In this document: one piece after another, positions 1-48,058 of the stretch
Layout: each line of letters starts with the position of its first letter
How positions within the stretch are numbered: the stretch's first letter is position 1
Origin: the human T2T-CHM13v2.0 reference genome, Homo sapiens
Strand: one strand, 5' to 3'
Assembly (NCBI RefSeq): GCF_009914755.1
Contig: NC_060925.1
DNA: 64,000 nt
The notes under the pieces: generated by a model
The model's database searches: none
Told to the model about the DNA's origin: nothing
The model's input: the letters and a program-made list of their open reading frames with translations, nothing else
Made by a program: the position numbers and the translations under genes

Positions 1-1630
1 GAGGTATTTCAATGTGATTTGAATTTGCCTTTTCTGAGTAACAAATAATGTAAAACATCTCTTTAGGTAAAGATTGATTGCCCATTTGTATTGTTTGTTT
101 GTTTGTTTGTTTTGAGACCAAGGTCTCACTCTGTCCCCCAGGATGGAGTACAGTGGCGCAACCATGGCTCACTGCTGCCTCGACCTCCCTGGACGCATGT
201 GATTCTTCCAGCTCAGCCTCACAAGTAGCTGAGACTACAGGTGCATGCCTGTACACCTGGCTACTTTTTGTGTTTTTTGTAGAGATGGGGTCTCCCTATG
301 TTGCCCATGCTGGTCTCAAACTCCTGGGATCAAGTGATCCTCCTGCCTCGGTCTCCCAAAGTGCTGGGATTCCAGGTGTAAGCCACTGCACCCAGCCAAT
401 GTTGTCCATTTGGATGATATCTTTTTTGAAATATGCACTCACATCTTTTACTGGGTAAATATTGAGTTATCTTGTTGATGCATTGAAAGAGTTATTTATA
501 TATTTTGGATATGAGATATTCATTTTTTCACTATGAGATATTCTCATGAGATATTATTCATTATGAGATATTTCACTATATTCATTATAGAATGATGAAT
601 ATTCACAAGTTGACTTTTGCCTCCCAGTTTGACATTTGCCTTTTTATTTTCCTGTTTTCCAAAGAACAAGTTTTTAATTTTTACGAAGTTCAGTTTTTCA
701 ATTTTGTCCTGTTTTCTTCTAGAAATGTTATAATTTTAGTTCTGATGTTTAAGTCTATAATCTGTTTTGACTTAAATTTTGTATGTATTTACAATAAGTG
801 TTAAAGTTCCTTCCCACACTCACTCCCAATATGAGTATCCAGCTGTTCCCACACAATTTATTGAAAAGACTATCTTTCCCCCATCGAATTACTTTGGTAC
901 CTCTGTCAAAAACCGCTTGTCTATATTTACTTTTATTTAAAGAGTCTGTAATTTTTATGTGGCAAGTACTTTGGTTTTTTTCAATATTGGTGTTTAAGAT
1001 CTATCAGGACAGGACAGAGGAGGCTTTATTCTATGGCTAGCTTAAGCCCTGCTCTCAAGGCCAACCATTTTGGAGTTTCTAACAAATGTTCCAGGTATTC
1101 AATAATGTCTGTCTTCACTCTGGCTGTTTGGAAATGGAATATCCTCCTACTCTCTATGAACTCTGTGAATTATTTAACTTACAGCTCTTTAGTAGTTTTT
1201 CTTATCCTGGCCTCATAGAGTTTTATTGGATGCAAGCTCAGCTTATTCAGGCAAAGACTCAAGGGGATTCCTGGGCAAATGTTTGGAGTTATTTTTCTTA
1301 AAAATTCCCTCTTCTCTGCAACCCAGCCCTTCCAACTTGAGCTGCCTCGGTCTCCCTGAATTTGGTTTTACGTCTCCTCACTCAGTGAGAGTGTTATGCT
1401 CTGCTTGTTCCCCCACTGTGCATGCTAGTTCAGAAAAGGTTCCCATGCAGAAACCTCAGGTAATTATGGGACTTGCCTTGTTAGTTTCCCTTATCTTATG
1501 AGTCACAGTCCTGCAGTTCCTATTGCTCAAGATCTGAACATGATGTGTCATGTGCTTTGTCCCATATTCTAGTTGTTTACAGCAAAAGAGCAAATCTAAT
1601 ATCAGTTATTCCATAGTGGCTATAAGTGGA
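1..1630 (-). mobile_element. Old L1M-type LINE fragments, interrupted by an Alu
   Basis: Typical antisense L1 text, e.g. gtgatttgaatttgccttttctga and ccacacaatttattgaaaagactatctttcccccatcgaatt; T-rich strand bias. Confidence 0.7.
91..397 (-). mobile_element. AluJ-like element
   Basis: (TTTG)n tail, then gagaccaaggtctcactctgt...ctcaaactcctgggatcaagtgatcctcc...gccactgcacccagcc; highly diverged. Confidence 0.9.
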
Positions 1631-1634
1631 AGAT

Positions 1635-2195
1635 TTTGGAAACAGTGCTTCTTGAATTGTTTCATGTCTCCGCACTGTCAGACATACAAATTACTGATAG
1701 CCTTGTTGGAAGGATTGAATGGTAAGCATGCTTTATAAATTAGAAATAGTAAATTGCTCTGGAGAGATCTGAAGTTCCATCTCCATCAGAACTATTTGCT
1801 TACACTCTAAGAGTGATAAAAACCTAGAGACACCTTCCTTTCCTCTCCCCAGAGAGGATCTGTTTACATTTCAGAGCAGCAAGATCTCTTTCATTCTCCC
1901 CTCCCTTCAGGGCAGGTAAGACACATGTGCCAGCCATCTTATAGAAGCTTCAAGCATCATAAATAATCAATCAAGTATCAATAATCAATATCAAATTTAC
2001 CTACTTGTGCAGCGGTTGCTTCATAGGAGAGAAAACTAACATTAGTTTTCTCTCCTATGAAGCAACCGCTGCACAAGTAGGTAAATTTGGCTCCCACTAT
2101 GTTACCCGCGAAACAAGAATTGGGACATGGGGAACTAGTGCTGCTAAGATTCTCTGAGTGAATGATCTGTTTCTGACCCAGAGACCTGTGTTGTC
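1635..2195 (+). mobile_element. Old ERVL-class LTR (LTR40/LTR41-like)
   Basis: ttttctctcctatgaagcaaccgctgcac...gaattgggacatggggaactagtgc...tctgacccagaga resembles the recalled LTR40/41 3' half. Confidence 0.5.
1992..2089. repeat. Perfect inverted repeat: 48-bp arms, 2-nt spacer
   Basis: 1992-2039 is the exact reverse complement of 2042-2089. Confidence 0.97.
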
Positions 2196-5100
2196 AGAAA
2201 AAAATAGATAAGTAAATATAGGGAGATTTTTTTAAAGACTCTTTTAAAGTCTCTCGTGATTGTAAACTTAATCCATGCTCATATTTAAAATCTTTAAAAT
2301 AAAAATCAAAAATTATGAAAAGAAAACACTGTAAACATTTTGACATGTCTCTGAGGAGGAAAAACATAAAGAGAAGATGAGGAAAAAAAGGGGAAAATGT
2401 TTAAACTGTGTTAATAGTTTTTTTAAATTTAGCATTATGTTGTGAGCTATTTTCTCTGTTGCTGAATACTCTTTGAAGCCTGGCATTTAATAATTGAATA
2501 ATCTTCTATTCACTAGATCTCCTTTGGTTTATTTAAATATTCACCTATCACTTGACATTTAAGTCATTTCAAGCCTCATTTATTATAAAGAATGTGACTT
2601 GCATGTAAGTTTTTAGCTACATCTGTGATTAAATCATATTCTTGAGATACAAACACACAGGTGAAAATTTTAGGTCAAATGGAATGAACTTCTTAAGGAG
2701 TTAGAAATGTCATTCATATGACCAAATTCTTTGGCAGGTTTTGAGATGGGCTTCTGTTTTATTTTGAGGAGAAGCTTCTGCCTGCTTTTTGATAGCCAAC
2801 AGACAAAACTTGCATGTCAAGAACCTACAGAGAAGGATGAACCGACTTGTCCTGGCTATCAACAATCTGCAGGAACCTCTGAGCACCTACCTCCCTCCCC
2901 ATTCAAATAGTTTGCACATTTTGCACTCTTGGAGAAAAAGAAATTTTCTTTGTTTTCTTGGTTTCCTTATTTTGTTGTTGTTATTTTGTTTTCAACTACA
3001 ATATTTAATCAAAATTATACATTCAAGGTGAAGATCCATATGCCTTAATAACAGTGATACAGAATTAAAGTCTCACCAGAAATGCTGTTTGAAAACGAGT
3101 GGACTTTTCTTTAAGATTTATAATTTGGGGATGCTCTCTTGCATAAGATTACAAGTTCAGATTTTGTAGACAGATCCTTGGTCAATTGACTAGGCTGTCC
3201 CTGGTCTTTCTGCACACTGGACATGCTTCGGCCAATGGTTCTCACTATTCTTACTAATGTTAGACCCAACATTATGGCAGGAGTAATAGATCAGTAAGAG
3301 GAAGCATAGGGACAGCTTTGAGGTCAATTACCAGAGATATTGTTTAATTTACTCTCATCTCTGACTCAAATCCAGAAAAATATTTACATATCCCTTCCTA
3401 AGCCCAAACTCTCATCAGACACAGATAAATGTTAGTCATATGGAAGGGGAATTACTGGGAGAACAAAAGCTCTGTCTTTGGCTTCTCACACCTGTTGGCA
3501 CTTTCTGTGTGATAAGAACCATGCTAGCATGTGGGAAACAGTGATTTACTGTAACCATGTGAGCCTATCAGCCAGGTCAGTCTGCTCCAGAAGACAGAAT
3601 GTGGAATCACCTGTTCCTGAAATGGCCCCAGGAACATCAATTGCATCGGTAAACAGACAATTAAATTGGCAAATACTGATATGAAAAAAAAACTGCATGC
3701 TAGTTCAGGGGGGTATATGGATATCTTTTCTATTTTAAAAAATAAAAGGGAAAGTTGGAGAATGGGAGGTAGAGAACTATCTAATCACTGGGGCCCTTTG
3801 ATCTTTGGAATGTTGGTTCCAAAACTCTGCTTGAGCCTCTTTGCTGTGTTTCCCCTGTTTTATTTCGATGGCTTCTGTTTGTCAGCCTCTCTGATTTTTC
3901 TGTCTTTATTTCAGATAATTGATGACCCTATGCAACTGTTAAAAAAATGTGGGCATCCCTTTGGACTAGTCTGGATTCCTGATGCTGAGGAAATCGACCA
4001 CACGAACAGCTTCTGGAATTTAACCAGATCCACAAGGGTGAAGAGAGGGCAAGAGATCATCTTAGAGAAATTTTAAACTATTCTATTGTCTTTTGTTCTG
4101 CTTCATGAGAAAGACTAGATTGTGAAATTCATCCCATTTCTAATTCCCACCCAGGGAATAAAAGAGAGAATATTCATTTCCTTTTAATATCAGCTTAAGC
4201 AAAGAAAATGCAGTTACACCAAGGAAAGATGATGGGAGAGTCACAGATGATTCATAATTGACTCCAAATTTCATTCCTGAACATATCTGCTCTCATTAAT
4301 AGTTAAGACAGAAAAACAAATAAAATATAAGAAGCTCCAATCGAGTAGAGCCTCCTTGATTCTTGCTATCTGCAGTGCACTGCATGTGACACTGGCCATT
4401 TAAATCATTATAGTCCTCACATGCCATTTTTCAAACAGAAGACCTAGCTTCTTATCATTGTTTTAAGTCAGTTATGACCCAAGCTTTCCCCATATACAAT
4501 TAGCAGCTTGAAAGGTGGTACCAAATCTTATATATCTTTATATTTCTAGTGTGTGGTATTAGTGCCTTGAACATGGTAGGTGCTCAGTAAACGTGGTTAA
4601 ATTGAATAAACGTAGTGAAAATGTGGGTAGGGGGATCCCAATGGAGCTAATACCTACTGAGCCCCTGATACTTTTTCCAAACTATCTCATTTATTAATTA
4701 CAAGAACTCTATGCAATAAGTCTTATCACCTCCATTTTACAGGTGAGGAAACAGGACCAGAGAGATGAGTACAATCAGCCCAACTAGTTAGTAGCAAGGC
4801 TGGTATTGAAAGTGGATGGGTTTGACTGACAAAATCAATTGACCTCCCCAACTGCAAGACGATCTGAACAGAAACAGTAGGTTATCTTGTCCCCAGCATC
4901 CTTACTCTTCCACAACCTCCTTCAACCAGGCTTTAACCTTCTTCCTTCCTGAGTATTTACTGGGATGTTAATACCAGAACACTAAGGTATTTACATAATG
5001 TAATTTACCATCTAAAGTGGAAGGCATTCAGAGAGAGAATATGAATAAAATAAGAACTAAAATATACAGGGATTTAGGCAAATTTATATTAATACTAATT

Positions 5101-7689
5101 GGGAATATTGGAGACTAACACAATAAAGAAAATATGTAAAATTTGGTTGGACTGTATAAAAATAGTACTAATTACAGTTATTTACATAAATTGCTCAACA
5201 TTCAGCCTAATTACTGTGAATTACAATAATTCTTAGGTAAATGTTTAAATGTGGCTTTGATTAACCTGTGTAGATTGTGCATCTCAGAGCAAGCTTGGCC
5301 CAAGACTACTCAGTCTCTGGATGTGTTGCCCGTGGAGCTTGGACGAGAAGGCACAGAAGCAGGAATCTTGCTCAGAAGGTAGAAATTAATTCATGTCATC
5401 AAAAGAGAAACCATAAGGAATAGACTTTTCCTCAATCCCTGCTTCCCTTTTCCTTTCCCACTAAGTTTTAATATTTTTGTTAAAAAAGAAAAGCTGAAAA
5501 CACAAGTCCTACAGCAATATTTTCAACAGAATTATCCTTTAATGTGAAGGAACAGTCTTCTCTCTCTGTTTCTGCTAATTGGACTAGTAGCTTTTCCTTA
5601 AAAATCCAACCAATTTCACAAGACTTTAGAGGTATGTTTCCAACTGTCTAGTGGCCTTTTTTAAAATGACTTCATAGTAGGCATAAAGCCTCAAATAAAA
5701 GAAGAAAACACTCAAAGGAAAATCTTATTTCATAAATTAATGTACCATCTCAGAGTCTTAGAGGCAAGAAATGTGTATTGAATTACTTGTTCTTGGATAA
5801 AGAGCCTTGAAATGCCCACTATGTGCCCCATCATAAAGACACTGTATTTGTAAGCTTCCACAGTGTGTTGTCTCACTAATAGATGTACCTAAAAGATATA
5901 TATTGGGAAGGCAGCTAACCATGAAAATTTGCTATAGCCTAATAAGTAAAGGTATCATGCTAGGCTAGAAGTATAGTAATAACTGGTAACATGATTCGAA
6001 ATAAAATTGGCATTAGTCATTCAAGAAATAGAAAACTGTAACTTAGTTTAGCAAAGATTTAAAAAGCAGTGCTAGTTCACTCTCTCCCTGCTTTCTCATG
6101 CATTTCCCTCCTTTCTCCTTCCATAAGAAATGACTAATCTTTAATATGAGGTCAACAACATAGGAAGTCCTTGGGTGGAGAGAACATGGTAAAATAACAA
6201 GCAAGCAAAGCCACACATGGACAAATGCCAGATAATGTAACAGCCACTTTCTAGATGTGAGCCGAGGGGTATGGAGTCCAGTCAATTTAAAAGAAACAAA
6301 ACTGATATAATCATTGAGAGTAATCAGGCTACGTGCAGTCAAAGTAACTTGAAGGAAGTAGTAGATGTGGGTTGGTGCCAAAGAGTGACAAGGCTGTGCA
6401 GTTGGAGGAAAGAGCAGCCATTAATAGGCATATATTGTTTGAAAGATACTGCTGGGGATGTTCATTCACAGTTGTGAAGATAACAAACATTCTTAATATC
6501 CAGTAATATATTTTAGCAAACAGAACATATATTCACAGGATGATATATTATGTGATTATTTAAAATGATCAGGAATACTAAGTAATGACTTAAGAAGAAA
6601 CTTTTGATATCATGTTAAGCAACAAGAGTAATTACAAAGTTGTACGTATGGTACATCTACAACTACATTAAAAATGCCTCGAAAAAATGTGTTAAGAAAT
6701 AAACCAAAATATTTACACTGGAAATAAGTTTTTCTTTTCAAAATCATGTTTAATGGCACATACTATATTTATAATAAAAACTTTGGAGAAGCACAGGCTG
6801 CTCAAGAGAGTGGGTTGCTCATAATATTCTTCTCCTAAAAGATCTCCAGCATAACCTCTCTCTAGGTTTCAATCTCTCCATTTGGGAAATTTGATGCTTA
6901 CTCATAACAACTTCGCTGCCTGGCTGTCAGGGTAAATTGAGATGAGCAAAGCAGCACATATAATCGTACCTTGTTTACTTAAGAGTCTGAGAACTCACTC
7001 CCAACATACATTTGTAATACATGTTCAATTATGCTTCTGCCTTCTGTCTCATGATAAAAATAACTTTGAACAAATTTTCAGTTTAAAGTTGAATCATTGC
7101 TAATTAGTTCTTCTTCAACCTCTACACTCTAAAATTGGACTTAACTATTTGTAATGATTACCAGCAACGTCTATAGAAACTTAGTCAAAGACTACCATTG
7201 ACATGATCCAACAGAGACATGAAGGAACATTGTTAGGATGGTGGATCTATTTCTCAGACGTCTAACTTTTAAGTTTCTTGAGATTACAAACAATATTTTT
7301 GAGCCACTTTCTAAGTTAGGCCTCTTGGAAGTACAAATAACAAGAGCCGCTCTAGCCAAGCTTAAGCAATAAAAGGGAAAAAATAGTATCGTGAGGATTT
7401 AATAACAGCTTAGAGAAAACAAGAAAAACTAAGCATGCTCTTAGGAAAGGGATGACAACCAGAAACTGAAAAGTTGTAAGAAATCCAGGCAGACCTCTGT
7501 ACACCTTTCAGCTCTGTTCTTTCAGAAGATGTTTCATCTTTTTTTCTCCCACATGCCATAGACACCAACAACTTCCAAATTTAAGTAGTACACATCCAGC
7601 TACCCAGAGAGAAATTGACCTGTCCTCTCGTTTCTAATTCCAAATTCCTGGAGATACCACTCTAAAGAGCTCAGCTTGTTCAATCCCCC

Positions 7690-7920
7690 AGTGAACAGGT
7701 AATTTTTCAACCCTCGTCTCCCTCTTACCTTTTCACTTTTTGGAGTCTCTAGTGTCTATTGTATGTCCGTGTGTTCCCATCGTTTAGCTCCCACTTATAA
7801 GTGAAAACATGCTGTATTTGACTTTCTATGTCTGCATTATTTCAGTTAGGATAATGGCCTCCAGTTCCAACCACACTGCTGCAAAGGATGTGATTTCATT
7901 CTTCTTTATGGGTGAGTAGT
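7690..7920 (-). mobile_element. L1PA/L1PB 3'-end fragment
   Basis: tttagctcccacttataagtgaaaacatg...aggataatggcctccagttcca...gctgcaaaggatgtgatttcattctt. Confidence 0.85.
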
Positions 7921-10900
7921 TGGAATATGTTATGATTTTTAGCTGTTTACCTCAATCATCTTTTGATGGCCTGGTGACAGCAAAGATGTTTTATCGCATT
8001 CCCTATAATGAAAAGAGAAACTCTCAGATTGGTAAAATCTGGGTCTTCCCTTTGTGCAAAAACATGAAAGCCTGGAAACTTTCTCTATCCTTCTATCACA
8101 CACCCACATTGGTCTATAGTAGCCTAATAGTTTACCCTGTAATCACTTACTGCCTATTCATGTGTGGCCTACACTTCTTAGGTTTCCTCCTGTACGTTCT
8201 TTATATCACCAAGCTAAGAGAACACACTGGCAATAAAGTAATAGGTGAATGCCCATCAATTACAGCACTTTGGACGCTCACTGGCCAGAAGACAAGAGTA
8301 CCGGATCATCTGTCTCCTTCCTTTCTGAGTCTCCTATTTTTCAATCTGTCTCCATCCAGCCAATACATTTCATCTTCCCTACACAAACACCAAACAGTTA
8401 AATCAAAAGGGAAGAGAAAATGGGGCTGTTTAATTTTGGAATGTCCAAATAGTTTTTTACATCCCTCTTCCAAAATATCTCAAGATCTTTGGCAAAGGGA
8501 GCTTGGTATTCAAAACCTTGGCATGGTGGTATCCTAGTCTGGGATCCCAACAGTTGTCTGTAGCACTCTTTCTAATTTCCCGTTGGGAACAGCTAGGAGA
8601 TGCTATTTATTAAATAACTGCCCCAATTCTGCAGCCCACTTTCCACCCCACCAGTAGGAAATCACTGGTATTTTAAGGTTGATTACAGTGAAGTCTGTCC
8701 ATTGTCATGAGTGTAGAAAAGGTTGGGTTTACTTGCAAGGGAAAGATGCTTTGTTACTGCTATCCTATGTTATCAAGGGGTTGTTAAATAGGTAAGTATG
8801 GAGTCCAAATGATAAAATAATTGACAACCATCCTTCCACTTCCTTGGTAAGATGTTTCTGGTGTTATCTCTTATGTCTGATGCACAGTTAAGTGGGAGGC
8901 AGGATTGATAGGAGACTCCGAAAAACAAAGGTAAAATCACATTCGCCATCACTTTCCTTTTCAGAGTAAGAACACCTAAAAATTTTAAAATAAACTCAGG
9001 ATCTAATTTGATGCCGAGTATGACTCAACCAAATATCCCTCCAGGGACACAGGAAACTTAGTACATTTCTTTCTGATGGCTTTATTAACTCCACCTTTTG
9101 CCAATAAATGTAAGTCCATTTGAGGACAGTGGGCTCTAATTGCTCCAGGAAACATGGCTGAGGCTCTTTACTCTAATTCATCCCCTGCACAGAATCCACA
9201 AGGCTGCTCCGGCTTGAAAGAAAGACTTCTCTCTGAGACAGGGCTATTGCCTTTGAAATCCATGTTGACAGAAGTCCTGTGGGTTCATAGATGCTTTGTG
9301 CACTTTTCACATTTCTATTGTATGAGGGAGACAGAGGGAGAGAAATAAAAAAACAAGAAGAGTTAAAAAAAAGAAAATTAAATGTAGTAGTTTAAATAAG
9401 TCAAATTAAGTGTCACTATAATATATTAGGGTCACTTCATAGTCCTAGAGCAGTGCCTGGTACACAGTGACCACTAAGTAAATGTTTGTTGAATGAATGA
9501 GATTTTCAAACCATTCATAATTAAGGAAGTTATTAATTATCCCAAACAGATATGAGAGCATGGGAATGTTGTTCTTCGGAATTCAACTCTCTTTCAGTAT
9601 ATATTCACCTGAATGGCTTGCTAATTTAAAAATTCTAACTAGTATTTTTTAGAGAAAAATGCCAAATCACCTTCCCTTTTATTTCCACAACACAAATAAT
9701 CAATTGCAATCTGTACTTACTGACATTTTCAACTCCTGGGTGGGGCAATTTCCACAAAGCAGGTTAAGTAAAACATTCAATTTCCCAGGTCACTGGGCAG
9801 GGTTCGAGGCTCTGACCTCACCTGCCCTCGCTATCCCACTCCAAAACTTCAGGTTAGCCTGAAAAGAGCCAGGAAAATGCTGGTAGATTGCATGATAAAC
9901 AGTGTTTTCCTGGGTCATTGGGAAGCCCAGCCACCCTCTCTGAGAACCCAGCCCAAATGCTAATGCAGCAGCAGATAGGAGCAGGGTAACAGGTGGTAGG
10001 AAGGGAGAGCCAGGCAGGTCAGAGTAAGGCTCAACCTTGAACCTTTAAACTCAGCATCATCAGCAAACAGCCCTCTCTTCTACTTGAACCAACTGCACAG
10101 CTCTATTCAGGCAGCTGGGTTTCCCCGGATATTTTCCAGAGGTGTTTCTGGGGATGGGCCCTGCACTTTGCCCTTTATCATGGGGAGGGATGACTGTGGG
10201 TCAGTTTCACTCAGCGGGAGACGCCAGTCCTCCTACAAAGTAGGATAGCCCTCCACTCAAATATTCATTTATTTTGCTCTTCCTCATTCCATCTGTCAAT
10301 GTCTGAGGCCTAAAGGCCTCTGATGTAGTTCACATGGTGGATGGATGGTGGCATATTTGTAAGTTGTTTGATAAGTTGAGCTTGGTTCATTCCAAAAGAA
10401 TTTTATCTTCTCCAGATCATACTGATGTTGGGAGGTGACCCAATAACAGAGGCAATGCCAACTCTTCCCTTTCTAGACAGCTGTCTCTACCCTTATAGTG
10501 CATGGTTGATGGATGTTATCAGCCTGTGTCACACTTCTTTGCTTTTGGTCCCAAAGGATATGTTCATTTCTCCTTCCCACCAATCCTACACATAAGCTTA
10601 ACTCCTTCACATACGTAAATATACAGATTCTAAATGTTATTCAATTTCTTTGTGTTGCAGAAGGTAGCTGTTCTCCTTGTTTTATAGCAATATAAAATGA
10701 ATAGTACCCTGAGTCTAATTCATAATTCATTAATACCAGTGTTACATCTCTGAGAATATTTCTAAAAGAACTTTAGTGGATACTGTGGCTTTTCTCCAGG
10801 ACATCAGTGAAAAATATTTAGGGATTCTTCATGTTATCCAGCAGAATAATTGAAGGCCTTAGAGTCTGCATATTCTCTGACTATACCTCTTCTTGGGGAA

Positions 10901-11191
10901 ATAAATTTTGAAATTTTAGTTTTGAAACTAGTTTTGTGAAGGTTCAAATACATCTCTTAACCCTTTGAGTAATGTTGCCATAGACAAGCAGTTGTCAAAA
11001 TGGCCCAAGGAATCTAGGGGTCTCTGAGACCATTTAAAAGACTCCATATGTACCAACTATTTTTATAGTAACACCAAGACACTACATGCTTTTTTTACTG
11101 TATTGACATTTGCACTGATAGTACAAAATCAATAACACGTAAAATTGTTGGTGATTTAGCATAAATTAAGGCACTAATACCAACTGTATTA

Positions 11192-11415
11192 CAGGATAAA
11201 TATCCCTTATCCAAAATATTTAGAACCAAAAGTTTCAGATTTCAACTTTGCTTTGGATTTTGTACTATTTGCATTATATTGGTTCAGCATCCCTAATCTA
11301 AAAATACAAAATGCTCCATTGAGCATTTTCTTTGAGTGTAATGTTGGGGCTCCAAAAGTTTCAGATTTTGGAGCATTTTGTATTTGGGGTTTTGGAATTC
11401 AGGATATTCAACCTA
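11192..11415. mobile_element. Tigger4/MER46-type TcMar MITE nested in Charlie1
   Basis: Degenerate TIRs caggataaatatccc...ggatattcaaccta flanked by TA; internal aaaagtttcagattttggagcattt. Confidence 0.75.
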
Positions 11416-11991
11416 TAGTTGTTATTGTTCTATTCTTGCTGCACCTTCCCAGATAAGAAAAAAGTACCCATTTCTCCTAAAAATAACCTTTGATAAATCA
11501 GTGAAAACTATTAATGTTATCAAATCTCAACCTTTGAGTATGTTACAAATTGGGAAGTAAACATAAAGCGATGCTGCTACACACCAAAGTATTCTGATTT
11601 GCCTCAAGGGAGAGCACTTGGAGATCATTTGAGTTGCAAGCTGAACTTGCCACTGATTTCATGGATCATTATATTTACTTTAACGGTTGTCAGACAAACT
11701 GTGGTTAGTCAAGCTTTGCTATTTGTCAGACATTTTCTCAGAAATAAAGTGATTCTGTCAGTACAATAATGCAACTGAGAGTATTTGTTGTCAGTGGTAA
11801 AATTTGAGATTTCAAGTGAAGATTAGAATTTTGACAAAATCTTATTTTGGCATATAGCTTTTTATAGTGACATTTAGCTTGACAAGTTCCCAATATTTAA
11901 AGCTATTTCTGATGAGATCAGCGCTGATGTTGATGAATGTAATTTGTAATATTGTATAATGAAATATGTCAATATTTGCAAGGGCTGCATA

Positions 11992-12531
11992 AGACAATGT
12001 AACATCTAGAATTTTGACCCCATGACCTTTGACTTTTGGCTCCTGGTGCCATGGTTTTGATATTTTACATGGCAAAAGAGTTGGCAGATATAATTAAGGT
12101 GACTAATCAGTTGATTTTAAGATAGAGAGATTACCCTGGATTATCTGAGTGGATTCAAGCTGCAAAAATGCTCAACAGGAGAGAGAGGCAATGGAAGAGA
12201 AAGCCAGAGAAATATGAAGCATGAGGAGGACTGAGCTTGCTTTAGCTGGCTTGAAGACAGAGGATGCCACATGAAAAGCATAGGAAGGAAATGAATTCTG
12301 CCAAAATCCTTAACTTGAGAATAGATTCTTCCCCAGAGCCTCCAATAAGCAATACAGCACTCCTGTCACATCCTGACACATCGATTTTTGCCTTTTGAGG
12401 CCTAAGCAGAGAACCTAATTCATTTATGGTATGTCCAGACATTTGACGCATGCAATTTGGGGAAAATGGGTGTTGTTTTAAACCCCTAAGTTGTTGGAAA
12501 TTTGTTGCAGCAGCAATAGAAAACTAATACA
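11992..12531 (+). mobile_element. MLT1D/E-like MaLR LTR nested in Charlie1
   Basis: gcagatataattaaggt...gagattaccctggattatc...gcagcagcaatagaaaactaataca terminus. Confidence 0.8.
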
Positions 12532-12799
12532 TTCAGTGAACTATAGTTTCCAAATGGCCAACTCATGATCTAACAAAATCATGCATGATTAAATGGACAA
12601 ACAGGACTAATGGATTTTAATGTCACTAATTATGAAAGTTTCATAATACGGTTTCAGAATCCAAGTTGCAGCTTACCTTTAAGAAATTGTCACTTATGTA
12701 AGTTGAGTATATTATCAAAGAAGAATGTTTACACTTTCCTAAAAAGGACATTAAAATGTTTCTTCCTTTTGCAGCTACAGCCATCTTTCATTTGTCATT

Positions 12800-14462
12800 A
12801 TTAATGCATTTAGCCTTCAAATCTACTTGTCTATGTTAATATGACTGCACCAGCTTTCCTTTGGTTAGTGTTTGTATCTTTGCTCATCCTTTTACTTTCA
12901 AGCTTTCTAAATTCTTTCATTTCAGGTGTGACTTATAAGCAATACACATTTGGATTTTCTTTTTTCTATCTACAGTGTCAACTTTTGTTTGGAATATTTA
13001 GTCCATTTACATTTTGCATACAGTATAATATATTTGACTTTAAATCTAGTATGTTTCTATTTGTTTCTATATATCCAATCTGTTCTATTTTCCTTTTTCC
13101 TTTCTTTCCTTTTTTAAATCAAGTATTTAAAAAAATTAGATTCTTTTTACCTCTATTTACACATTAGATGTATTTTTTACTTAAAATTATAACATGCACA
13201 CATTAAAATTTAGTTTAAATTAATACTTTCACTTCATTCCATATAATGCTGTAACTGAGAACAATTTAACTTTCATTATGCTTCTGGGAACATATATGCC
13301 AATGCTGTTGTATGATACATGTGTGTAAGTTCATATGATATTATTGTTCATGCATATAGATAATATTTGTTTAGATTTACCCATATATTTATATTTATAT
13401 GTATTTTTTTCTTTTATACTTTATTTTTTTCCCACTTCTTCAAGATTTCATCTGAGATAATTTTTCATCTGCCTAAAAAACAACTTTTAGATTTCCTTTA
13501 GGAACAGTCTGATGATTAATTCTAACAGTTTTGATTAGATTTAAAATGTCTTTATTTCACCTTCATTATCAAAAGGTATTTTCACTTTGTATAGAATTTT
13601 ATATTGGTAGTGATTTTCCATCAGCTTTTTGAAGCTGTTGGTCTTCTGGTTTTTATTATTTCTGTTAAAAAATTAGCTGTCAGTGTTACTGGTCTTTTGG
13701 TTTTCATTATTTCTGTTAAAAAATCAGCTGTCCATGTTATTGCCGCTCTTTTGAATGTAATTGTCTTTTTTGCTTTTGGCAACTGTTACAATTTTCTCTT
13801 GATCTTTGCTTAAATATGATGTTTAGCTGTGATTTTCTTTTTAAGTATTCTTCTTTGGATTCATAATGCTTTGTAAATCTATGGTTTGAGACTTTACATC
13901 ATTTTTAGAAAAATATCTAGGCAAATATTGCTTCTATCCTGTTCTATTTCTCTCCTCTTTGAACTCTAATTACACATAAATAAGACCATGTACCGAATCA
14001 TATGTATTTCCTCATATGTAATTCATGTTATCTATAAGTATTTTTCATCTTTTTGGTTTTTAATTCTTTATTCTAGAAACGTTCTTACAATTCATCTTCA
14101 AGCTCCCTAATTCTCTCTTCAGCTATGTCTAATCTAATCTGTTAAATCCATCCATTGAGTCATTAATTTCAATTACTATATTTTATCAGTGTTAGAATAT
14201 CCCTCTTGGTTCCTTTTTAAAGTTTCTTGTTCTCTTCCAAAATTCTCAGATTATCATGTCTTATGCATTAATTGAAGATATAAAGTCCATGTCTGGAAGT
14301 CTATTCTCTAGACCACCAGTAAATCTCTTCCTGTTTTCTGTCATTTTCTTCTTTTCAAGTCATGTTGTTTTCTTGTGTCCTAATGTTTACATGGTTATAC
14401 ATGGTCACATACACACATGTACACACATAGGCATGCACATTGTATCTCTCTTTCTCTTTCAT

Positions 14463-14514
<52 letters not shown>

Positions 14515-15550
14515 ATAGAGATAATTTGAAGCTCTGGATGATATATCTCCCAGCCAGGCTGGTGCTAGGAGCATGCTGAATCCTAGACTCACCTTAATCC
14601 AATAAGTAATTGAGATTCTTAAACACTGAGTTTTAATCTCCATGTAGGTTTGTATATTCATTATACAACTTGAGTCCAAGGCTATCATCTCTTGGGACAG
14701 CAACTAAAGCCTGGACGATTTACCAGTATCCTTCTCTCCTTGAGGGCTTCTGAAGACCAGTGTTTTCCCTAGTCCTTTCAGACTTTCAGAAGCTTTGCTC
14801 AAGTTTACAGCTTCTCAATGGACTCTACCACAACTGTACAATGCATTAGAGGGAAAGCATCCCAAAATGCCAAGCTCATCTCTCTGAGTTTCCTTTTCCT
14901 GAATTTTGTCTTCACAATTAATTCTGAATTATGGCAGTAATCTGGTGTTTTCAAACATTTGTTGTTTATATTTTGTCCATATGTGCTAATTATTTTCAGT
15001 AAGAAAATTAGTTCAATTTACTAGTCATCCAAGTAGCTTCTAAGATTTTCTAATTTTCCTGATATTTTGTGGTTTGTCTGTGATGTGTATAAGAATCAAT
15101 TTGTTTGTATTTATCCTGCTTGATACTCATTGCTCTTTTTCAATCTGCATCCAATATCTCCTTTCAATTCTTGAACTCTCTGCCATCGTCTTTTTGAACA
15201 TTGGCTGTCCCCATTGTCTCTAATCTTTTCTGGAATTTTTACTAGACATTTGTTGGAGCCTCTCCTGTCTTCTATATCTTTCAATTTCTCCTCCAAATTA
15301 TTCATTTACTTATTATCATCTAGTACATTCTAAGTGGTTTCCTTAAAATTATCTAACAATGTTTTAATCTGTCTTCTGGTAAACTACCAATTTTATATAT
15401 ATTTTAGTGGCTATTTTTTATTCTCAAGAATTTCTACTTTTTTTTCAAATGTATCTGTTCTGCTTCATTTTCTTATTATTATGTTCTGGATTATTTTCCC
15501 TTATAATTTGAACGTCTTTAATATGTTAATTTTAAAGTATTTTTTAAGGT
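12800..15550 (-). mobile_element. Old L1M/HAL1 fragments including ORF1 relics
   Basis: Strongly T-rich. ORF 15305-15111 (LKDIEDRRGSNKCLVKIPE) resembles the L1 ORF1p motif DxEDRxRRxNIRxxGxPE. Confidence 0.7.
14465..14512. repeat. (AC)24 microsatellite
   Basis: Directly visible, uninterrupted. Confidence 0.97.
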
Positions 15551-36574: not shown

Positions 36575-36974
36575 TCATCTCAACTTTGCAATGCCTTATT
36601 TTGTATAGAAATAATGAATTAAAACAGTTTTAAAGCCAAGTATAATCCACTAGTTCATTACGTATACTTATGTCACAACTTCCAGAACTGGCTAAAGTTG
36701 ATATCAGCATGAACAAGAAGCTATACATCTACATTTAAAGAGAAGATTAAATGAAAGAATTGCTCATAGGAACAGTTTGCTGCACAGGTGACAGCAGTGG
36801 CCGGAAGCCAGACCTATAACACAGTTAACTTTCACGTTGAACAAGCTACTGATCAAGTCGACTCTAACAGTCACTGAACCTTCTCTCAAATGTCTTGTTC
36901 TCTTTTTTTCTGGAATTACACTACTGAAAGAAAAAAAAAGAATGAAGGAAAAGGAGAGAGGAAGGGGAAAAATT

Positions 36975-37031
36975 ATACACACACATGAAAATATACACTC
37001 ACACATATATATGTATATGTATGTGTGTGTA

Positions 37032-37064
<33 letters not shown>

Positions 37065-37065
37065 G
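36975..37065. repeat. Compound (CA)/(TG)/(TA) microsatellite in intron 3
   Basis: Directly visible. Confidence 0.9.
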
Positions 37066-38930
37066 CAGTTCCTCTTTGGATTAAGGATGTTAATTCCAAT
37101 TTTCGGTTGTGTGACTTAACAAACCTAGTGCTAGTAACAACTCTCTCACTTGTAATAGAGAAAAAACACTTTCTTTATTCTATAGAATTGCTCTGTACAG
37201 GAACGGGCATTAAATGGATAAGAGTTTTAGTCTTACTAAACCCTGATTAAGGTTAAAGGAATAAAGCTTAACTAGGAAGATACTATGTTCAGCTTCTCCC
37301 CAGAAAATCCAGTTGTTGCAAAGTTAACTAAAGGCTAGTAGTATACAGGCCGAGGGTGTCACCTCTCAAGCATTCAATCCCGTTTGCTTCCATGTATGAC
37401 ATTCCAGTGTGGCAATAATGCAGAAGATGGAGGAATCCCAGCAATGGCTCAAAATCCAGAGCAATTGAAAGAGGAAGACTTGCTAAGTTTTCAAATATAT
37501 TAAAAGCTCAGGACAATAGCATGTGGGCACTACCTGAACAGATTCTTAATGACATTTCTAGACTCTAACACATCCCTAAGAAAGCTTCCTTGAAGGAACA
37601 CCAATTAGATAAACAGGTAGGGAAGGAGAAGGGGTAGAGAGAGTAGTGATTTCACCTAAACTACATCTACTGGCTACCCACCAGTGGACCAAGGAAAAAA
37701 AACCTGATGTAAATTTTCATCTTAAAAATTTACAGATGAAGTTTACTTCTCATAGTCAACAGTATTTCAAGAAAAGTAAGCATCTCTCTTTTTCAACTTT
37801 TTCCCTTCAGCACACGGTATTTAGCTCCAAGTCAAGACCAGAAAGCATGGTGGTGAGAGAATGAGCTTCTGAGTGCCTGGCTGGACCACCGGTTCCACTA
37901 CACACACTTGATTCAGGAATAAATAAACTGGTATAAACACTAAACTTAGATGCTGCTCAGCTTATATTACACTCTCAGTGAAAGCTATTATGTTTATAAA
38001 ACCTGCTGTGTTTTTACTAAAGCAAGACTGTAAGATTTCAGTTTATCCAATAATATAACAATGAAAATAAAATTGTGCCTATGCAGGTTGTGATATGGAG
38101 TTGTTCTTCGGGCTGAATGCTATTTGTTATTGGTTTTGTTTTCCTTAAAAAAAAAAAAAAAAAGGCAGGTAAGCCTGAATAATCTATAAGGAATGTGAGA
38201 AGGAGCTTTAGTTGAAATCCTCTTAGAACAAGTATATCTTACCCTACTCATTAAATAGAAAACAATTTCCTAACTTCCTCCAACTGGAGTTAAGTCAGAT
38301 GGAATCTCAGTCATAACATCACATCATGTATCAACCAGAAGTTCCTCATATGCTTGTTGAGAAATTTTTCTTCCTCAGCGCTCCAGGTTTGGCTCAGATT
38401 TTATTAATAAAGAATCTGCAGTATCTCTGCATCCTCAGTGTTGCCAGTTGGGAATTACTTAATAGGGCATCATAAACATTGCCTTAGTGTGTTGTGAAAA
38501 GGCCTCAGGCTTGGGAGTCAAAAACCCTGGATTCTGGCCCCTTCTTGGACACTAGAATTCCTATGACCTTGAAGAAGTCACTTTACTTCTCTAAGTTCAG
38601 TGATCACCCTGAATTTCCTTTCAGACTCAATATTCCATGGTCCTGTGCTGACGGCATAATTAGCAAGGAAAACAGCTTGGCAAAATGACCAGAGATGTCA
38701 ACACTACAGCAAATCCACCAGACCCCACTGGCTGTTAAACCTGAGGCTGTTTTTTTCTTTCTCTGACAAAGGAACACCCCACTCCACTTAACTGTATTCT
38801 TCCTGGAATAACAACCTGCTGTAATATTTAGGAAAAGTACTAGGCCACCCCTTTATGGTAATAAAAGTTGAAGTTACGTAAAAAAAAATAAATGTTGAGT
38901 TTTGCTATATTGCAGGTGCTCCCAAAATGA

Positions 38931-45948: not shown

Positions 45949-46036
45949 TTGGGTATTTTACAGTAGGAATTGGGTATTTTACAGTAGGGTATTTTCAAGT
46001 TCAAGATGAAAATCATTCCTACTGTAAAATACCCAA
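45949..46036. repeat. Tandem plus inverted copies of a 22-mer
   Basis: TTGGGTATTTTACAGTAGGAAT (45949-45970), a 19-nt second copy, a 9-nt third copy, and the exact reverse complement at 46015-46036. Confidence 0.95.
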
Positions 46037-48058
46037 GGAAGTATTACTTAAATTGTCTTAGGATCTTGCCCCCAGGGAACTTGTATTTCTTTCCCAAGAA
46101 GAGTAAAGGGAGGCCCTATCAAACAGAGGCAGAGAGAGTTGAATGGGAGTGCTGTCTCACTAGGTATAAGGTATGAAACAAGAGATAAAGAAGTATTTAT
46201 CTTACTCAGGGGAAGAAAGAGATTTAGGAGGCTGACTATGAGTCAGAGAGAAGTCTTCTTATGATCACGTCATTTGACTGCTTCCCTCAAACCAGTGTGG
46301 TCTGGCTTACATGTGAGATGCCTTATGTTTGAAAAGACATAAACAAGGAAGTATCACAAGCTTAAAATACACACATATACATAAAACTTCAGATATACTC
46401 ATATAACATAATGGGATCTTGAATCCCATTGAGTACCCATCCACATTATTTGGCTTGCTATATTATTAAGTCTTTTAGGAAGATATATCTAAAAATAAGT
46501 TAGTCCCTCCATTCATGGGTTTTTCCTGTGTGAAGGAGACACAGTTATCTACAGATATATCTTAAAAGCCAACTCTAGAAAAGACAGTGGATGATATATA
46601 AAGCAGCAAAAAAAAAAAAAAAAAAAAAAAGAGCTTTGCCTTGGATTTAGAATAGTGGGTCTGCCACATGCCAAGTGTGTGACTTTTTGAAAGTTATTGA
46701 AGTATTCTGGGCTATCTTTCCATAACTATAAAATAGGATACTACTACTTAGGTCTGTCGTAATGATTCAATGATTTTGTGTGTACAATAGCCATCCTGGT
46801 ATTTTAAGAAGGCATTCAAACCCTGCAGCTATTTGAATGACTGTCAAATGGAGCAGCAAAGCTAACTAGCACTGGAGGTAGTCAGATGCAGGAAGATGAC
46901 CAGAGACTACAGGGGTCAATGTCAGTGTTGCTAGAGATGAACTTTTGATGCTGGTACAGTTGCTTCAGAGCAGTAGGAAAAGGAGACCATCCTGCAGAGG
47001 CAACCCCATGCAAGGGCATCACCAGAGAGGGAGGACAAAGCAGGAGCCATGAGGACAGCCCACTGTAGCTCTGCTCTGCTAAAAGTGTACTCAGTGCTGT
47101 TAGCCTAGTCTACACTCCATCACTGCCGGAGGAAGTGGCATGCAGAGTGGGGGTTGGGGCTGGTGGTTAGTGTGGTCTCCCTTGAAAACCTCATTATATT
47201 TAGTTCTTTATGTCTACGATTTTCAGAAGCCTTGAAAAAAAAGACATTTTTTAGGCATATCGAATAGCCAAAAATACATTTCTGGTATATTCTCTAAAAA
47301 TATATGCATACTTCTAGAAATTTTTGAAATGGACGTACAGAAAAGTTATCACACACACAACTTTTTCATACCTCAATTTCCTCAATAAGTTGAGGTGTTT
47401 ACAGTTTTTCTCAGAGTCATTCTATAAAAACTTAGTTTCAACAACTTATTATATGTATACATGCAGCCTCATTCTACAACTATAACTGCATTATTAATAC
47501 ATATTCTTTTAAAATGTATTTTCCTTTCTGTGTATATCCAGATTAAGAGCTTTAATAGAATTTAGGTCCTTGGAGAGCAGGACTAGTCTTATTTAAATCC
47601 CTTTGTACACAGGAATTAGCCCCAAGTCACATGAAGACAGGTGACTGCTGATATGTTAGATACCAATAGGAGCTACAGGGAAAGAGGTATTGAGATAGGT
47701 GGTCAATTTCTTTTTGGAAATAATTTACAAAAACTTAATAAAATAAAAAGATCTTCCTGGTGTTTTCCTAGTGATAAATGATAGGCTGAAATCATTTCCA
47801 GAATAGCCCTCCCAAAACTATCTTCCAATAATAAAAGTTGTTCATTTTTATTTAGTTCATCTAACCAAGTAGTATTTAGTAATGTTTTAAGAGAAAAAAA
47901 AATTCTGAAAAGTTGATACCAGAATTTGCCTGAATTTTGAGTTAACAATAGTCTTTTCTTTGGATTGTCTGGACAAAACAACATAATATAGAATACTGAG
48001 GCTTACATGAAATAGACATTGCTTGAGTTGTCATCGTATAGTAACTTTGGTATCATAG

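What the first reader, a model, noticed from the sequence alone, without database searches (positions are those of the whole stretch)
1958..2089. Perfect 98-bp palindrome created inside an ancient LTR
Seen: 48-bp arms with no mismatches around a 2-nt spacer (CA), immediately preceded by stuttered AATAATCAAT/ATCAA fragments (about 1958-1993). The right arm continues smoothly into LTR-like sequence, so the left arm looks like the inserted copy. Established: long near-spacerless palindromes extrude cruciforms and are unstable and rare. Inference: perfect identity in a highly decayed element means either a recent fold-back/template-switch event or ongoing arm-to-arm correction. If transcribed, it would give a ~48-bp dsRNA hairpin, a potential Drosha/Dicer/ADAR substrate.
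Basis: partly seen in the sequence, partly recalled or inferred. Interest (0 to 1): 0.72.

Follow-up and report, generated by a model that had tools for sequence, protein, structure and literature searches.

The report
Perfect hairpin repeat in old LTR
A 48-base piece of a very old retrovirus-type repeat was copied backwards right next to itself, giving a perfect 98-base hairpin-forming palindrome; it is a clean, rather long example of a known DNA-copying error and shows no sign of a function.

Summary
Arms 1992-2039 and 2042-2089 are 48 nt each, 100% complementary, with a 2-nt spacer. The palindrome occurs once in CHM13.

It lies in an old solo LTR. Four other complete copies are 598-663 bp, and three of those four carry 5-bp target-site duplications. 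None of 18 other copies has the palindrome.

Fitting each arm separately to other copies shows that the right arm is the original LTR sequence. It scores higher in 15-18 of 22 copies and sits directly after the base aligned to 1962 in 10 of 12. The inserted block is therefore 1963-2041: a 29-bp AT-rich tandem stutter, the inverted copy and CA.

The best mechanism is a short-range template switch during DNA synthesis. This is a known process, though at 48 nt the copied stretch is longer than in most inferred events.

Zero differences between the arms only limit the age to under roughly 13-22% of the LTR's age, or about 10-62 Myr. That is young relative to the LTR, but not necessarily recent.

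The site is intergenic, 33 kb from DUSP10, with no annotated transcript and no Rfam family.

The LTR family could not be named, because the tools hold no repeat library. Orthologues, other assemblies and reads could not be checked.

The parts
1634..2311 (+). Host element: an old solo LTR, family not named. The 5' end is at 1634-1638. The 3' end is uncertain: homology is shown as far as 2184, and end-to-end fits place the end at 2275-2311.
   Evidence: Alignments to other copies start at 1634, 1635, 1635 and 1638. The BLAST match to L013 runs to 2184. End-to-end fits of the 3' parts of 4 complete copies span from 2042 (three copies; L001 from 2086) to 2275-2311, with z of 3.3, 2.0, 3.65 and 1.2. 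Probes made of the terminal stretch alone were not significant.
1963..1991 (.). AT-rich tandem stutter, 29 bp, GC 0.17. It is specific to the window and forms the outer part of the inserted block.
   Evidence: It is absent from all 7 copies in alignment A1. TRF gives period 7 x 3.9 or period 13 x 1.9 over 1969-1994. Its internal repeats are listed, and its GC content.
1992..2039 (.). Left arm, 48 nt: the derived, inverted copy of 2042-2089.
   Evidence: It is 100% complementary to the right arm. It fits the family no better than shuffled sequence: mean z is 0.09 and -0.01.
2040..2041 (.). Spacer CA. It may be original LTR sequence or may have been added at the junction; this is unresolved.
   Evidence: The right arm's best placement starts 0-3 bases after the base aligned to 1962, which leaves room for about 2 original bases.
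2042..2089 (+). Right arm, 48 nt: original LTR sequence and the template for the inverted copy.
   Evidence: It scores higher than the left arm in 13 of 17 copies and in 15, 17 or 18 of 22 under three scoring schemes. It is placed 0 to +4 after the anchor in 10 of 12 exact-anchor copies. The match to L013 is collinear, 1709-1962 followed by 2047-2184.

Best explanation
The palindrome is the scar of one local copying error inside an old, dead solo LTR.

While this stretch was being synthesised, the growing strand left its template just after window base 1962. It then copied the 48 bases lying immediately ahead (now 2042-2089) from the opposite strand, so in reverse complement. After that it returned to the original template with no loss of sequence. 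The result is an insertion of 77-79 bp (1963-2039 or 1963-2041), and its inner 48 bp form a perfect hairpin partner for the neighbouring original sequence.

The 29-bp AT-rich tandem stutter at the outer junction arose either by slippage during the same event or by later slippage at that junction.

Shown here: the structure, its uniqueness in the genome, its absence from other family copies, and which arm is the original. Inferred: the switching mechanism, that it was a single event, and the age. The age is well below the LTR's and probably within the last few tens of millions of years at most.

Nothing indicates that it does anything. It is intergenic and lies in no annotated transcript.
For: - Perfect 48-nt arms with a 2-nt spacer.
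- A single occurrence in CHM13.
- 0 of 18 other family copies have an inverted repeat at the homologous site.
- The right arm fits the family and the left arm does not. Right is higher in 13 of 17 copies (3 left, 1 tie), mean shuffle z 2.17 against 0.09, Wilcoxon p 0.0036.
- With 22 of 26 copies and three scoring schemes, right is higher in 15, 17 or 18, with p of 0.003, 0.001 and 0.0005. The right arm starts 0 to +4 after the base aligned to 1962 in 10 of 12 exact-anchor copies, against 2 of 12 for the left arm.
- With the window aligned as it stands, more right-arm than left-arm bases pair in 15 of 17 copies.
- The BLAST match to L013 skips 1963-2046.
- The literature describes exactly this product. 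Template switching creates perfect inverted repeats and whole hairpin stems in one event, also without any pre-existing repeat. 53,666 putative events were inferred in primate genic regions, 6,054 of them of miRNA size (PMC10710096, passages; PMC5453318, passages). Events of up to 318 bp are inferred in human haplotypes (10.1101/2021.11.26.470150, passages).
Against: - No orthologous sequence from another species or another human assembly could be examined. The ancestral state rests on paralogous LTR copies that are only about 60-75% identical.
- A minority of copies favour the left arm: 3 of 17, 3-5 of 22, and L011 and L012. The alignment also carries a bias of about 3 score points towards the right-arm solution, because that solution needs one long gap rather than two.
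- A simple two-switch event does not explain the 29-bp stutter, and I saw no clear microhomology at either junction.
- The copied stretch of 48 nt is long; most inferred events are 10 bp or shorter.
- An assembly error or a change private to the CHM13 cell line cannot be excluded with these tools.
Confidence: 0.72

Rival explanations
1. The product is the same but came from break repair rather than replication. After a double-strand break between 1962 and 2040, the right-hand 3' tail snapped back on itself and primed synthesis, as in polymerase-theta-type end joining. This gave the inverted copy. Repeated aborted rounds of synthesis gave the stutter before the ends were joined.
For: The inverted copy lies directly next to its template with only a 2-nt loop, and a stuttered junction sits on the far side. 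That is the pattern described for snap-back or in-cis templated extension (PMC4912351 and PMC5728401; I saw only the search listing and the start of each abstract).
Against: The stutter repeats itself rather than copying the flanks. Its longest exact match outside itself is 6 nt, and 998 of 1000 shuffles reach that. From recall, 48 nt is long for such templated insertions. Nothing in the sequence distinguishes a break from a stalled fork.
Confidence: 0.13
2. The palindrome is old, and its arms are kept identical by repeated arm-to-arm correction, through template switching within the hairpin or through gene conversion.
For: Template switching is reported both to create and to maintain perfect stems (PMC8794818; search listing and start of abstract only). 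An old palindrome under correction would look the same in a single genome.
Against: Correction is not needed to explain the data. Zero differences in 2 x 48 nt is expected for millions of years: the median is 2.4-14 Myr and the 95% bound 10-62 Myr. From recall, arms of 48 nt are far shorter than the tracts that support efficient gene conversion in mammals.
Confidence: 0.05
3. The palindrome is not a germline feature of human DNA. It would instead be an assembly or consensus error, or a mutation private to the CHM13 cell line.
For: I have only one assembly and no reads. Palindromes are hard for cloning and for some sequencing chemistries (PMC7999016, passages).
Against: The block has a complex, non-mirror part (the 29-bp stutter), which an artificial fold-back would not add. 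From recall, read-level fold-back artefacts in long-read data span whole reads, not 48 nt. No tool result bears on this directly.
Confidence: 0.05
4. The hairpin is a working small-RNA locus, either a young miRNA or an endogenous siRNA precursor, or an ADAR target.
For: The RNA folds into a 47-48-bp perfect stem at -92.6 kcal/mol. Hairpins born by template switching have become human miRNA genes, at least 18 of them (PMC10710096, passages).
Against: - No Rfam family reaches its gathering score. The best hit is 64.8 bits against a threshold of 80 for a plant miRNA model, and the scores are nearly equal on both strands, so the match is to structure only.
- No gene or transcript is annotated over the site. 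The nearest is the 3' end of DUSP10, 33.2 kb away, and then a lncRNA 104.6 kb away.
- The cited paper names a promoter as the limiting factor and finds such miRNAs enriched in introns.
- From recall, a perfect 48-bp stem with a 2-4-nt loop is not the usual Drosha substrate.
- A 22-mer from the arm occurs in 0 papers of the library, though supplements were closed.
Confidence: 0.03

Closest known systems
Short-range template-switch mutations (four-point model; PMC5453318, 10.1101/2021.11.26.470150)
   Same: A nearby stretch is copied in reverse complement and placed next to its source, giving a perfect inverted repeat in one step. No pre-existing near-repeat is needed. These events are mostly intergenic or intronic.
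   Different: The copied stretch is 48 nt, whereas the great majority of inferred events are 10 bp or shorter. The event is a pure insertion with no replaced sequence. A 29-bp tandem stutter sits at one junction, which the two-switch model does not produce.
Primate miRNA hairpins born by template switching (PMC10710096)
   Same: A perfect stem arises suddenly in previously unstructured non-coding sequence.
   Different: There is no host gene or promoter, no annotated or Rfam miRNA, the stem is longer than a typical miRNA hairpin, and the loop is almost absent.
Snap-back templated insertions of polymerase-theta end joining / SD-MMEJ (PMC4912351, PMC5728401; listing only)
   Same: An inverted templated insertion lies directly beside its template, with a repetitive junction.
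   Different: Its size is larger than usual (recalled). The stutter is not demonstrably templated from the flanks.
Palindromic AT-rich repeats (PATRRs) and other long cruciform-forming palindromes (PMC7999016, PMC7680136)
   Same: It is a near-spacerless palindrome with highly similar arms, the configuration most prone to hairpin or cruciform formation.
   Different: It is 98 bp and 40% GC, against roughly 200 bp or more and AT-rich for the named PATRRs. No rearrangement is known here.
Solo LTRs of old mammalian LTR retroelements (class III ERVL/MaLR type, or Gypsy-like)
   Same: The host repeat has discrete ends shared by many copies. Several copies begin with TG, and all four with a clear 3' end finish in CA. 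Three of 4 complete copies have 5-bp target-site duplications. Full length is 598-663 bp, and flanks are unrelated between copies.
   Different: No paired LTRs, internal region or core gene were found among about 60 places (my hand count). The family name and class therefore remain unassigned. The rule linking 5-bp duplications to class III is recalled and was not found in print.

Membership tests
LTR retroelement (solo LTR) | Discrete 5' and 3' ends shared by many dispersed copies, with unrelated flanks | tested here: met
   All-against-all BLAST shows left starts clustering within a few bases in most copies, 1634-1638 in the window. Four copies have a clear common 3' end. Upstream flanks of 13 copies share nothing beyond one weak A-rich match.
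LTR retroelement (solo LTR) | TG...CA termini | tested here: inconclusive
   By eye, 5 of 12 copies (L003, L006, L009, L011, L016) begin with TGT at the shared 5' end; the others are mutated or ambiguous. The window copy reads TT there. All 4 copies with a clear 3' end finish in ACA. The window's own 3' end was not located.
LTR retroelement (solo LTR) | Short target-site duplication (4-6 bp) flanking the element | tested here: met
   Of the 4 copies with both ends clear, L011 has ATACT/ATACT (5 of 5), L006 has GCAGC/GCAGC (5 of 5), L003 has CTCTT/CTCAT (4 of 5) and L001 has none. No duplication is recognisable for the window copy.
LTR retroelement (solo LTR) | Paired LTRs around an internal region with a core gene, to assign class and name | tested here: not met
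   Among about 60 places hit (my hand count, a lower bound) there are no two hits on one strand within about 10 kb that are not the same copy. The repeat just upstream in the window (926-1631) belongs to another family and is not followed by this LTR elsewhere. I neither fetched nor translated any large flank.
Named Dfam/Repbase LTR family | Match to a curated family model | not testable with these tools
RefSeq soft-masking does not even mask 404-15384.
Template-switch mutation (four-point model) | The new sequence is the reverse complement of a stretch close by | tested here: met
   1992-2039 is the exact reverse complement of 2042-2089, 2 nt away.
Template-switch mutation (four-point model) | The ancestral state lacks the inverted copy | tested here: met
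   This was tested by proxy only, using paralogous copies: 0 of 18 have it, and the family runs from the base aligned to 1962 straight into the right arm. Orthologous outgroups could not be tested.
Template-switch mutation (four-point model) | One event with two switches explains all the differences | tested here: inconclusive
   The 48-nt copy fits the model. The adjacent 29-bp tandem stutter needs slippage or further switches.
miRNA gene | Membership of a curated miRNA family or an annotated locus | tested here: not met
   All 11 Rfam matches at E up to 1 fall below their gathering scores, and 8 of them come as near-equal pairs on the two strands. No miRNA is annotated in the window.
miRNA gene | Expression and precise processing | not testable with these tools
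   No expression data are available. No annotated transcript overlaps the site.
MITE / DNA transposon with terminal inverted repeats | Many dispersed copies of the inverted-repeat unit | tested here: not met
   Genome searches with the palindrome plus its right flank (1992-2160) and with the right arm plus flank (2042-2330) find only this locus.
Palindromic AT-rich repeat (PATRR) | AT-rich arms, total length of some hundreds of bp | tested here: not met
   GC is 0.40 and the length is 98 bp. PATRR sizes are taken from PMC7999016 (passages).

The most novel reading that the evidence does not exclude
The block is a very young allele, specific to apes or humans and perhaps still polymorphic. Its perfect 48-bp stem would matter in one of two ways. 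It could act as a local replication obstacle or fragile point, with the adjacent stutter as the trace of repeated fork trouble. Or, when reached by read-through or LTR-driven transcription, it could be a source of Dicer-type small RNAs or an ADAR/dsRNA-sensor ligand. That would make it a caught-in-the-act case of small-RNA gene birth from a dead LTR.
Probability: 0.06. Interest if true: 0.55.

Novelty: new member of a known kind. Interest (0 to 1): 0.25.

Why it matters
The locus is a clean natural example of how one copying error turns unstructured junk DNA into a perfect long hairpin. That process is proposed as the raw material for new miRNA genes and as a source of local instability.

It also gives a lesson for the scan. 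Perfect identity of two 48-nt arms inside a decayed repeat proves that the duplication is much younger than the repeat. It does not prove that the duplication is recent or actively maintained.

Nothing here points to a role in DUSP10 regulation or in disease.

Tried and rejected
1. My first reading, by eye from the MAFFT alignment (noted), was that the left arm was original and the right arm inserted. Separate fits of each arm, the alignment of the window as it stands and the L013 match reject it.

2. One search shows A/T-rich and microsatellite sequence after an internal ...TGTCA in many copies, so I considered a poly(A)-tailed retroposon (SINE or LINE 3' end). I rejected this because four copies continue another 70-100 nt to a common end in ACA, with 5-bp duplications.

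3. I considered a DNA transposon with terminal inverted repeats, because the 5' end and that internal site are inverted matches of about 9-12 nt. I rejected it because the site is not the terminus and the duplications are 5 bp.

4. I tested whether the repeat just upstream (926-1631) is the internal part of the same provirus. It is not: its other copies are not followed by this LTR.

5. An apparent 60-nt shared upstream extension of L009 and L020 is a weak A-rich match with a score of 17.

6. I tested whether the stutter was templated from the flanks. This is not supported (998 of 1000 shuffles do as well).

7. I tried to locate the window's LTR 3' end with terminal probes. The result was not significant (z from -0.55 to 1.0). 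Whole-segment fits give only 2275-2311, and there the start at 2042 (three of the four copies) is simply the first base I offered, so it is not independent evidence.

8. The Rfam scan gave sub-threshold, structure-only hits.

9. Two paper searches for the rule linking duplication length to ERV class found nothing usable (listing, 0 papers), so the rule is recalled.

10. A paper search for a 22-mer of the arm returned 0 papers.

11. Supplements were closed. The locus lists of PMC5453318, PMC10710096 and 10.1101/2021.11.26.470150 may contain this site and I could not see them.

12. Pairwise distances depend on gap costs: p is 0.21-0.31 without gaps, while the median BLAST identity of 63% counts gaps. 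The LTR age is therefore an order of magnitude only.

Full report
**Observation.** Arms 1992-2039 and 2042-2089 are 48 nt each and 100% complementary, separated by CA at 2040-2041. The flanking bases, 1991 T and 2090 G, do not pair.

A 13-nt direct repeat lies just to the left, at 1959-1971 and 1977-1989. Tandem Repeats Finder describes 1969-1994 as period 7 x 3.9 copies, or period 13 x 1.9 copies.

As single strands, the region 1950-2130 folds into one long stem. As DNA it reaches -61.2 kcal/mol (z -17.3, 0 of 200 shuffles as good). As RNA it reaches -92.6 kcal/mol (z -17.6). Two bases next to the spacer stay open, so the stem is 47 bp in the DNA fold (47-48 bp as RNA) with a 4-nt loop.

The arms have ordinary composition: GC is 0.396, against 0.392 for the window, and each arm has one CpG. 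In the whole window the next-longest perfect inverted pair within 150 nt is 22 nt.

**Uniqueness.** Genome searches with 1992-2160, 2042-2330 and 1700-2039 find the arms only at this locus, apart from each arm matching the other. Matches in closed regions are not shown, and the search scores only the best candidates. This is therefore strong but not absolute evidence of a single copy.

**The host repeat.** Sequence left of the palindrome (about 1613-1962) matches dispersed places in the genome at 60-75% identity. I fetched 26 distinct copies.

- Their shared 5' boundary is sharp. In the window, alignments start at 1634, 1635, 1635 and 1638.
- Four copies have both ends clear: L001, L003, L006 and L011, with lengths of 663, 598, 638 and 615 bp.
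- Several copies begin with TGT, 5 of 12 by eye. All four with a clear 3' end finish in ACA.
- Three of those four carry a 5-bp target-site duplication: L011 ATACT/ATACT, L006 GCAGC/GCAGC, L003 CTCTT/CTCAT. L001 has none.
- Upstream flanks of 13 copies are unrelated to each other.

These are the marks of a solo LTR. A 5-bp duplication is what I recall for class III (ERVL/MaLR) and Gypsy-type elements, but I could not find that rule in print.

I found no paired LTRs and no internal region among about 60 places (my hand count, a lower bound). The session also has no repeat library. The family name and class therefore stay open, and I fetched no large flanks and translated nothing.

Many copies have an A/T-rich or microsatellite stretch 70-100 nt before the 3' end.

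In the window the LTR runs from 1634-1638 to at least 2184. Whole-segment fits put its end at 2275-2311, with z of 3.3, 2.0, 3.65 and 1.2. Terminal probes alone were not significant.

The repeat at 926-1631 belongs to a different family.

**Which arm is original.** None of 18 other copies has an inverted repeat of 20 nt or more at the homologous site. The pairs found there in 4 loci are microsatellite-derived or lie elsewhere. The L021 pair lies about 90-200 nt upstream of the homologous site, by the coordinates.

I compared the pieces apart and did not delete an arm. Each 48-nt arm was fitted whole to the stretch of each copy that follows the base aligned to window 1962.

- With 17 copies, the right arm scores higher in 13, the left in 3, with 1 tie. 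Mean z against shuffled arms is 2.17 for the right arm and 0.09 for the left, and Wilcoxon p is 0.0036.
- With 22 of 26 copies (4 dropped for weak anchors) and three scoring schemes, the right arm is higher in 15, 17 or 18 of 22, with p of 0.003, 0.001 and 0.0005.
- Among the 12 copies whose left-flank alignment reaches 1958-1962, the right arm's best position starts 0 to +4 bases after the anchor in 10. The left arm does so in 2.
- Aligning the window as it stands, with cheap long gaps, pairs more right-arm than left-arm bases in 15 of 17 copies. The exceptions are L011 (44 against 15) and L012 (23 against 7). This set-up favours the right-arm solution by about 3 score points.
- BLAST aligns L013 collinearly to 1709-1962 and then to 2047-2184.

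The right arm is as diverged from the family as the rest of the LTR: 26-36 of 48 bases are identical. The family thus runs from 1962 into 2042, allowing for 0-3 bases that may be the CA spacer. The inserted block is 1963-2039 or 1963-2041.

**The stutter.** The 29 bp at 1963-1991 have a GC of 0.17 and are missing from all 7 copies aligned. They consist of internal repeats: a 10-mer at 1962 and 1980, and a 7-mer at 1977 and 1984.

Their longest exact match to surrounding sequence is 6 nt, and 998 of 1000 shuffles reach that. I therefore cannot show that the stutter was templated from the flanks. It is slippage, either within the event or afterwards.

**Age.** Pairwise K2P distances are 0.24-0.31 among the four complete copies, and 0.23-0.42 between window pieces and those copies. 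The median identity of BLAST matches of 150 nt or more is 63%, counting gaps.

Half of the pairwise distance gives about 0.12-0.21 substitutions per site per lineage. With recalled neutral rates of 1-2.2e-9 per site per year, the LTR is on the order of 10^8 years old. This is rough, because it assumes a star phylogeny and rests on alignments at the limit of detection.

The arms show 0 differences in 2 x 48 nt. Relative to the LTR's own decay, the duplication is younger than 13-22% of the LTR's age at the 95% bound, with a median of 3-5%. With absolute rates of 0.5-2.2e-9, with or without extra weight on the CpG, the 95% bound is 10-62 Myr and the median 2.4-14 Myr.

The palindrome is thus clearly younger than its host. 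Perfect identity does not by itself show a human-scale event, and it does not call for arm-to-arm correction.

**Mechanism.** The product is an exact reverse-complement copy of the adjacent 48 nt, inserted 0-2 nt from its template with no loss of sequence. This is what short-range template switching yields.

- The four-point model and its human-chimp and human population surveys describe such events, including ones that create new inverted repeats and hairpins without a pre-existing near-repeat (PMC5453318, passages; PMC10710096, passages).
- Most inferred events are 10 bp or shorter. Events of 90 bp in complex sequence and up to 318 bp overall are also reported (10.1101/2021.11.26.470150, passages).
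- A break-repair version, snap-back synthesis in polymerase-theta-type end joining, gives the same product and could account for a stuttered junction (PMC4912351 and PMC5728401; listing and start of abstracts only). I cannot separate the two versions from one sequence.

**Function.** No gene overlaps the site. The 3' end of DUSP10 is 33.2 kb away and on the other strand, and the next annotated gene, a lncRNA, is 104.6 kb away on the other side.

Rfam gives only sub-threshold matches to perfect-hairpin miRNA models, nearly equal on both strands. The best is 64.8 bits against a gathering score of 80. A 22-mer of the arm appears in no paper of the library.

The cited work finds that a promoter is the limiting step for hairpins born this way, and that those which became miRNAs sit mostly in introns. 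The dsRNA idea is therefore possible in structure and unsupported in every other respect.

**Comparison and novelty.** The locus is a new example of a known kind of mutation in a known kind of repeat. Three features set it apart somewhat:

- the length of the copied stretch;
- the near absence of a spacer in complex, non-AT-rich sequence;
- the adjacent tandem stutter.

A published catalogue counts 69,888 near-perfect spacerless palindromes over 50 bp and 783 of 100-200 bp in the reference, with 80% of palindromes at 80-90% AT (PMC7680136, passages). That method seeds on a perfect central 8-mer, which this palindrome lacks because of its CA spacer. It is probably not in that catalogue; this is my inference.

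Longer arms, higher identity and shorter spacers raise the risk of hairpin or cruciform formation (PMC7999016, passages). Whether 98 bp at 40% GC matters in vivo is not known.

**Limits.**
- I had no primate orthologues, no other human assemblies, no reads, no expression data, no repeat library and no supplements.
- The polarity of the event rests on paralogues at about 60-75% identity.
- Several rules of thumb are recalled rather than checked. These are substitution rates, duplication length by ERV class, the geometry of Drosha substrates, minimal tracts for gene conversion, and the types of long-read artefact.

**In passing.** A second, smaller structure of the same design lies in a DUSP10 intron. 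It is a perfect 22-nt inverted pair at 45949-45970 and 46015-46036, and its left arm is tandemly duplicated. It too is single-copy in the genome.

Noticed in passing
window 45949-46036: A second perfect inverted repeat lies in a DUSP10 intron. Its arms are 22 nt, 100% complementary, with a 44-nt spacer. The left arm is tandemly duplicated (19 nt repeated at 45949 and 45970). The design matches the main finding, an inverted copy plus an adjacent tandem repeat, so it may be another template-switch scar. The sequence is single-copy in the genome. It lies about 150 bp before the annotated enhancer 'active region_2560' at 46182-46361.
   Followed up: partly
window 926-1631: An old repeat of a different family abuts the 5' end of the LTR. 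It matches L023, L024 and L025 at 60-64% identity, and in those places it is not followed by the LTR. Window 85-398 also matches L025 at 76% and coincides with the two soft-masked stretches 85-193 and 210-403.
   Followed up: partly
LTR copies L003, L004, L005, L006, L010, L012, L016 (3' parts); window 2197-2225: Many copies of the LTR family carry an A/T-rich or (TA)n/(CA)n-type microsatellite 70-100 nt before the 3' end of the LTR. The last 50-70 nt of copy L011 match many more places, and at higher identity (81-92%), than the rest of the LTR does. This may mean that a related, more abundant family shares that end.
   Followed up: no
L006 (G000:C1:214149800-214151000), L009 and L001 5' junctions: Three copies have GCAGC, or nearly that, immediately before the LTR 5' end. 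In L006 it is the target-site duplication. In L009 and L001 I have no explanation; it could be coincidence, target preference or an extra base stretch in a subfamily.
   Followed up: no
window 11118-11398: Two imperfect inverted pairs lie close together: 30 nt at 80% with a 50-nt spacer, and 20 nt at 85% with a 111-nt spacer. This could be an old DNA-transposon or MITE remnant.
   Followed up: no
window 36974-37053: A (CA)n/(TA)n microsatellite gives imperfect palindromic pairs. It lies in the soft-masked stretch 36891-37071, in the DUSP10 intron just upstream of the last exon.
   Followed up: no
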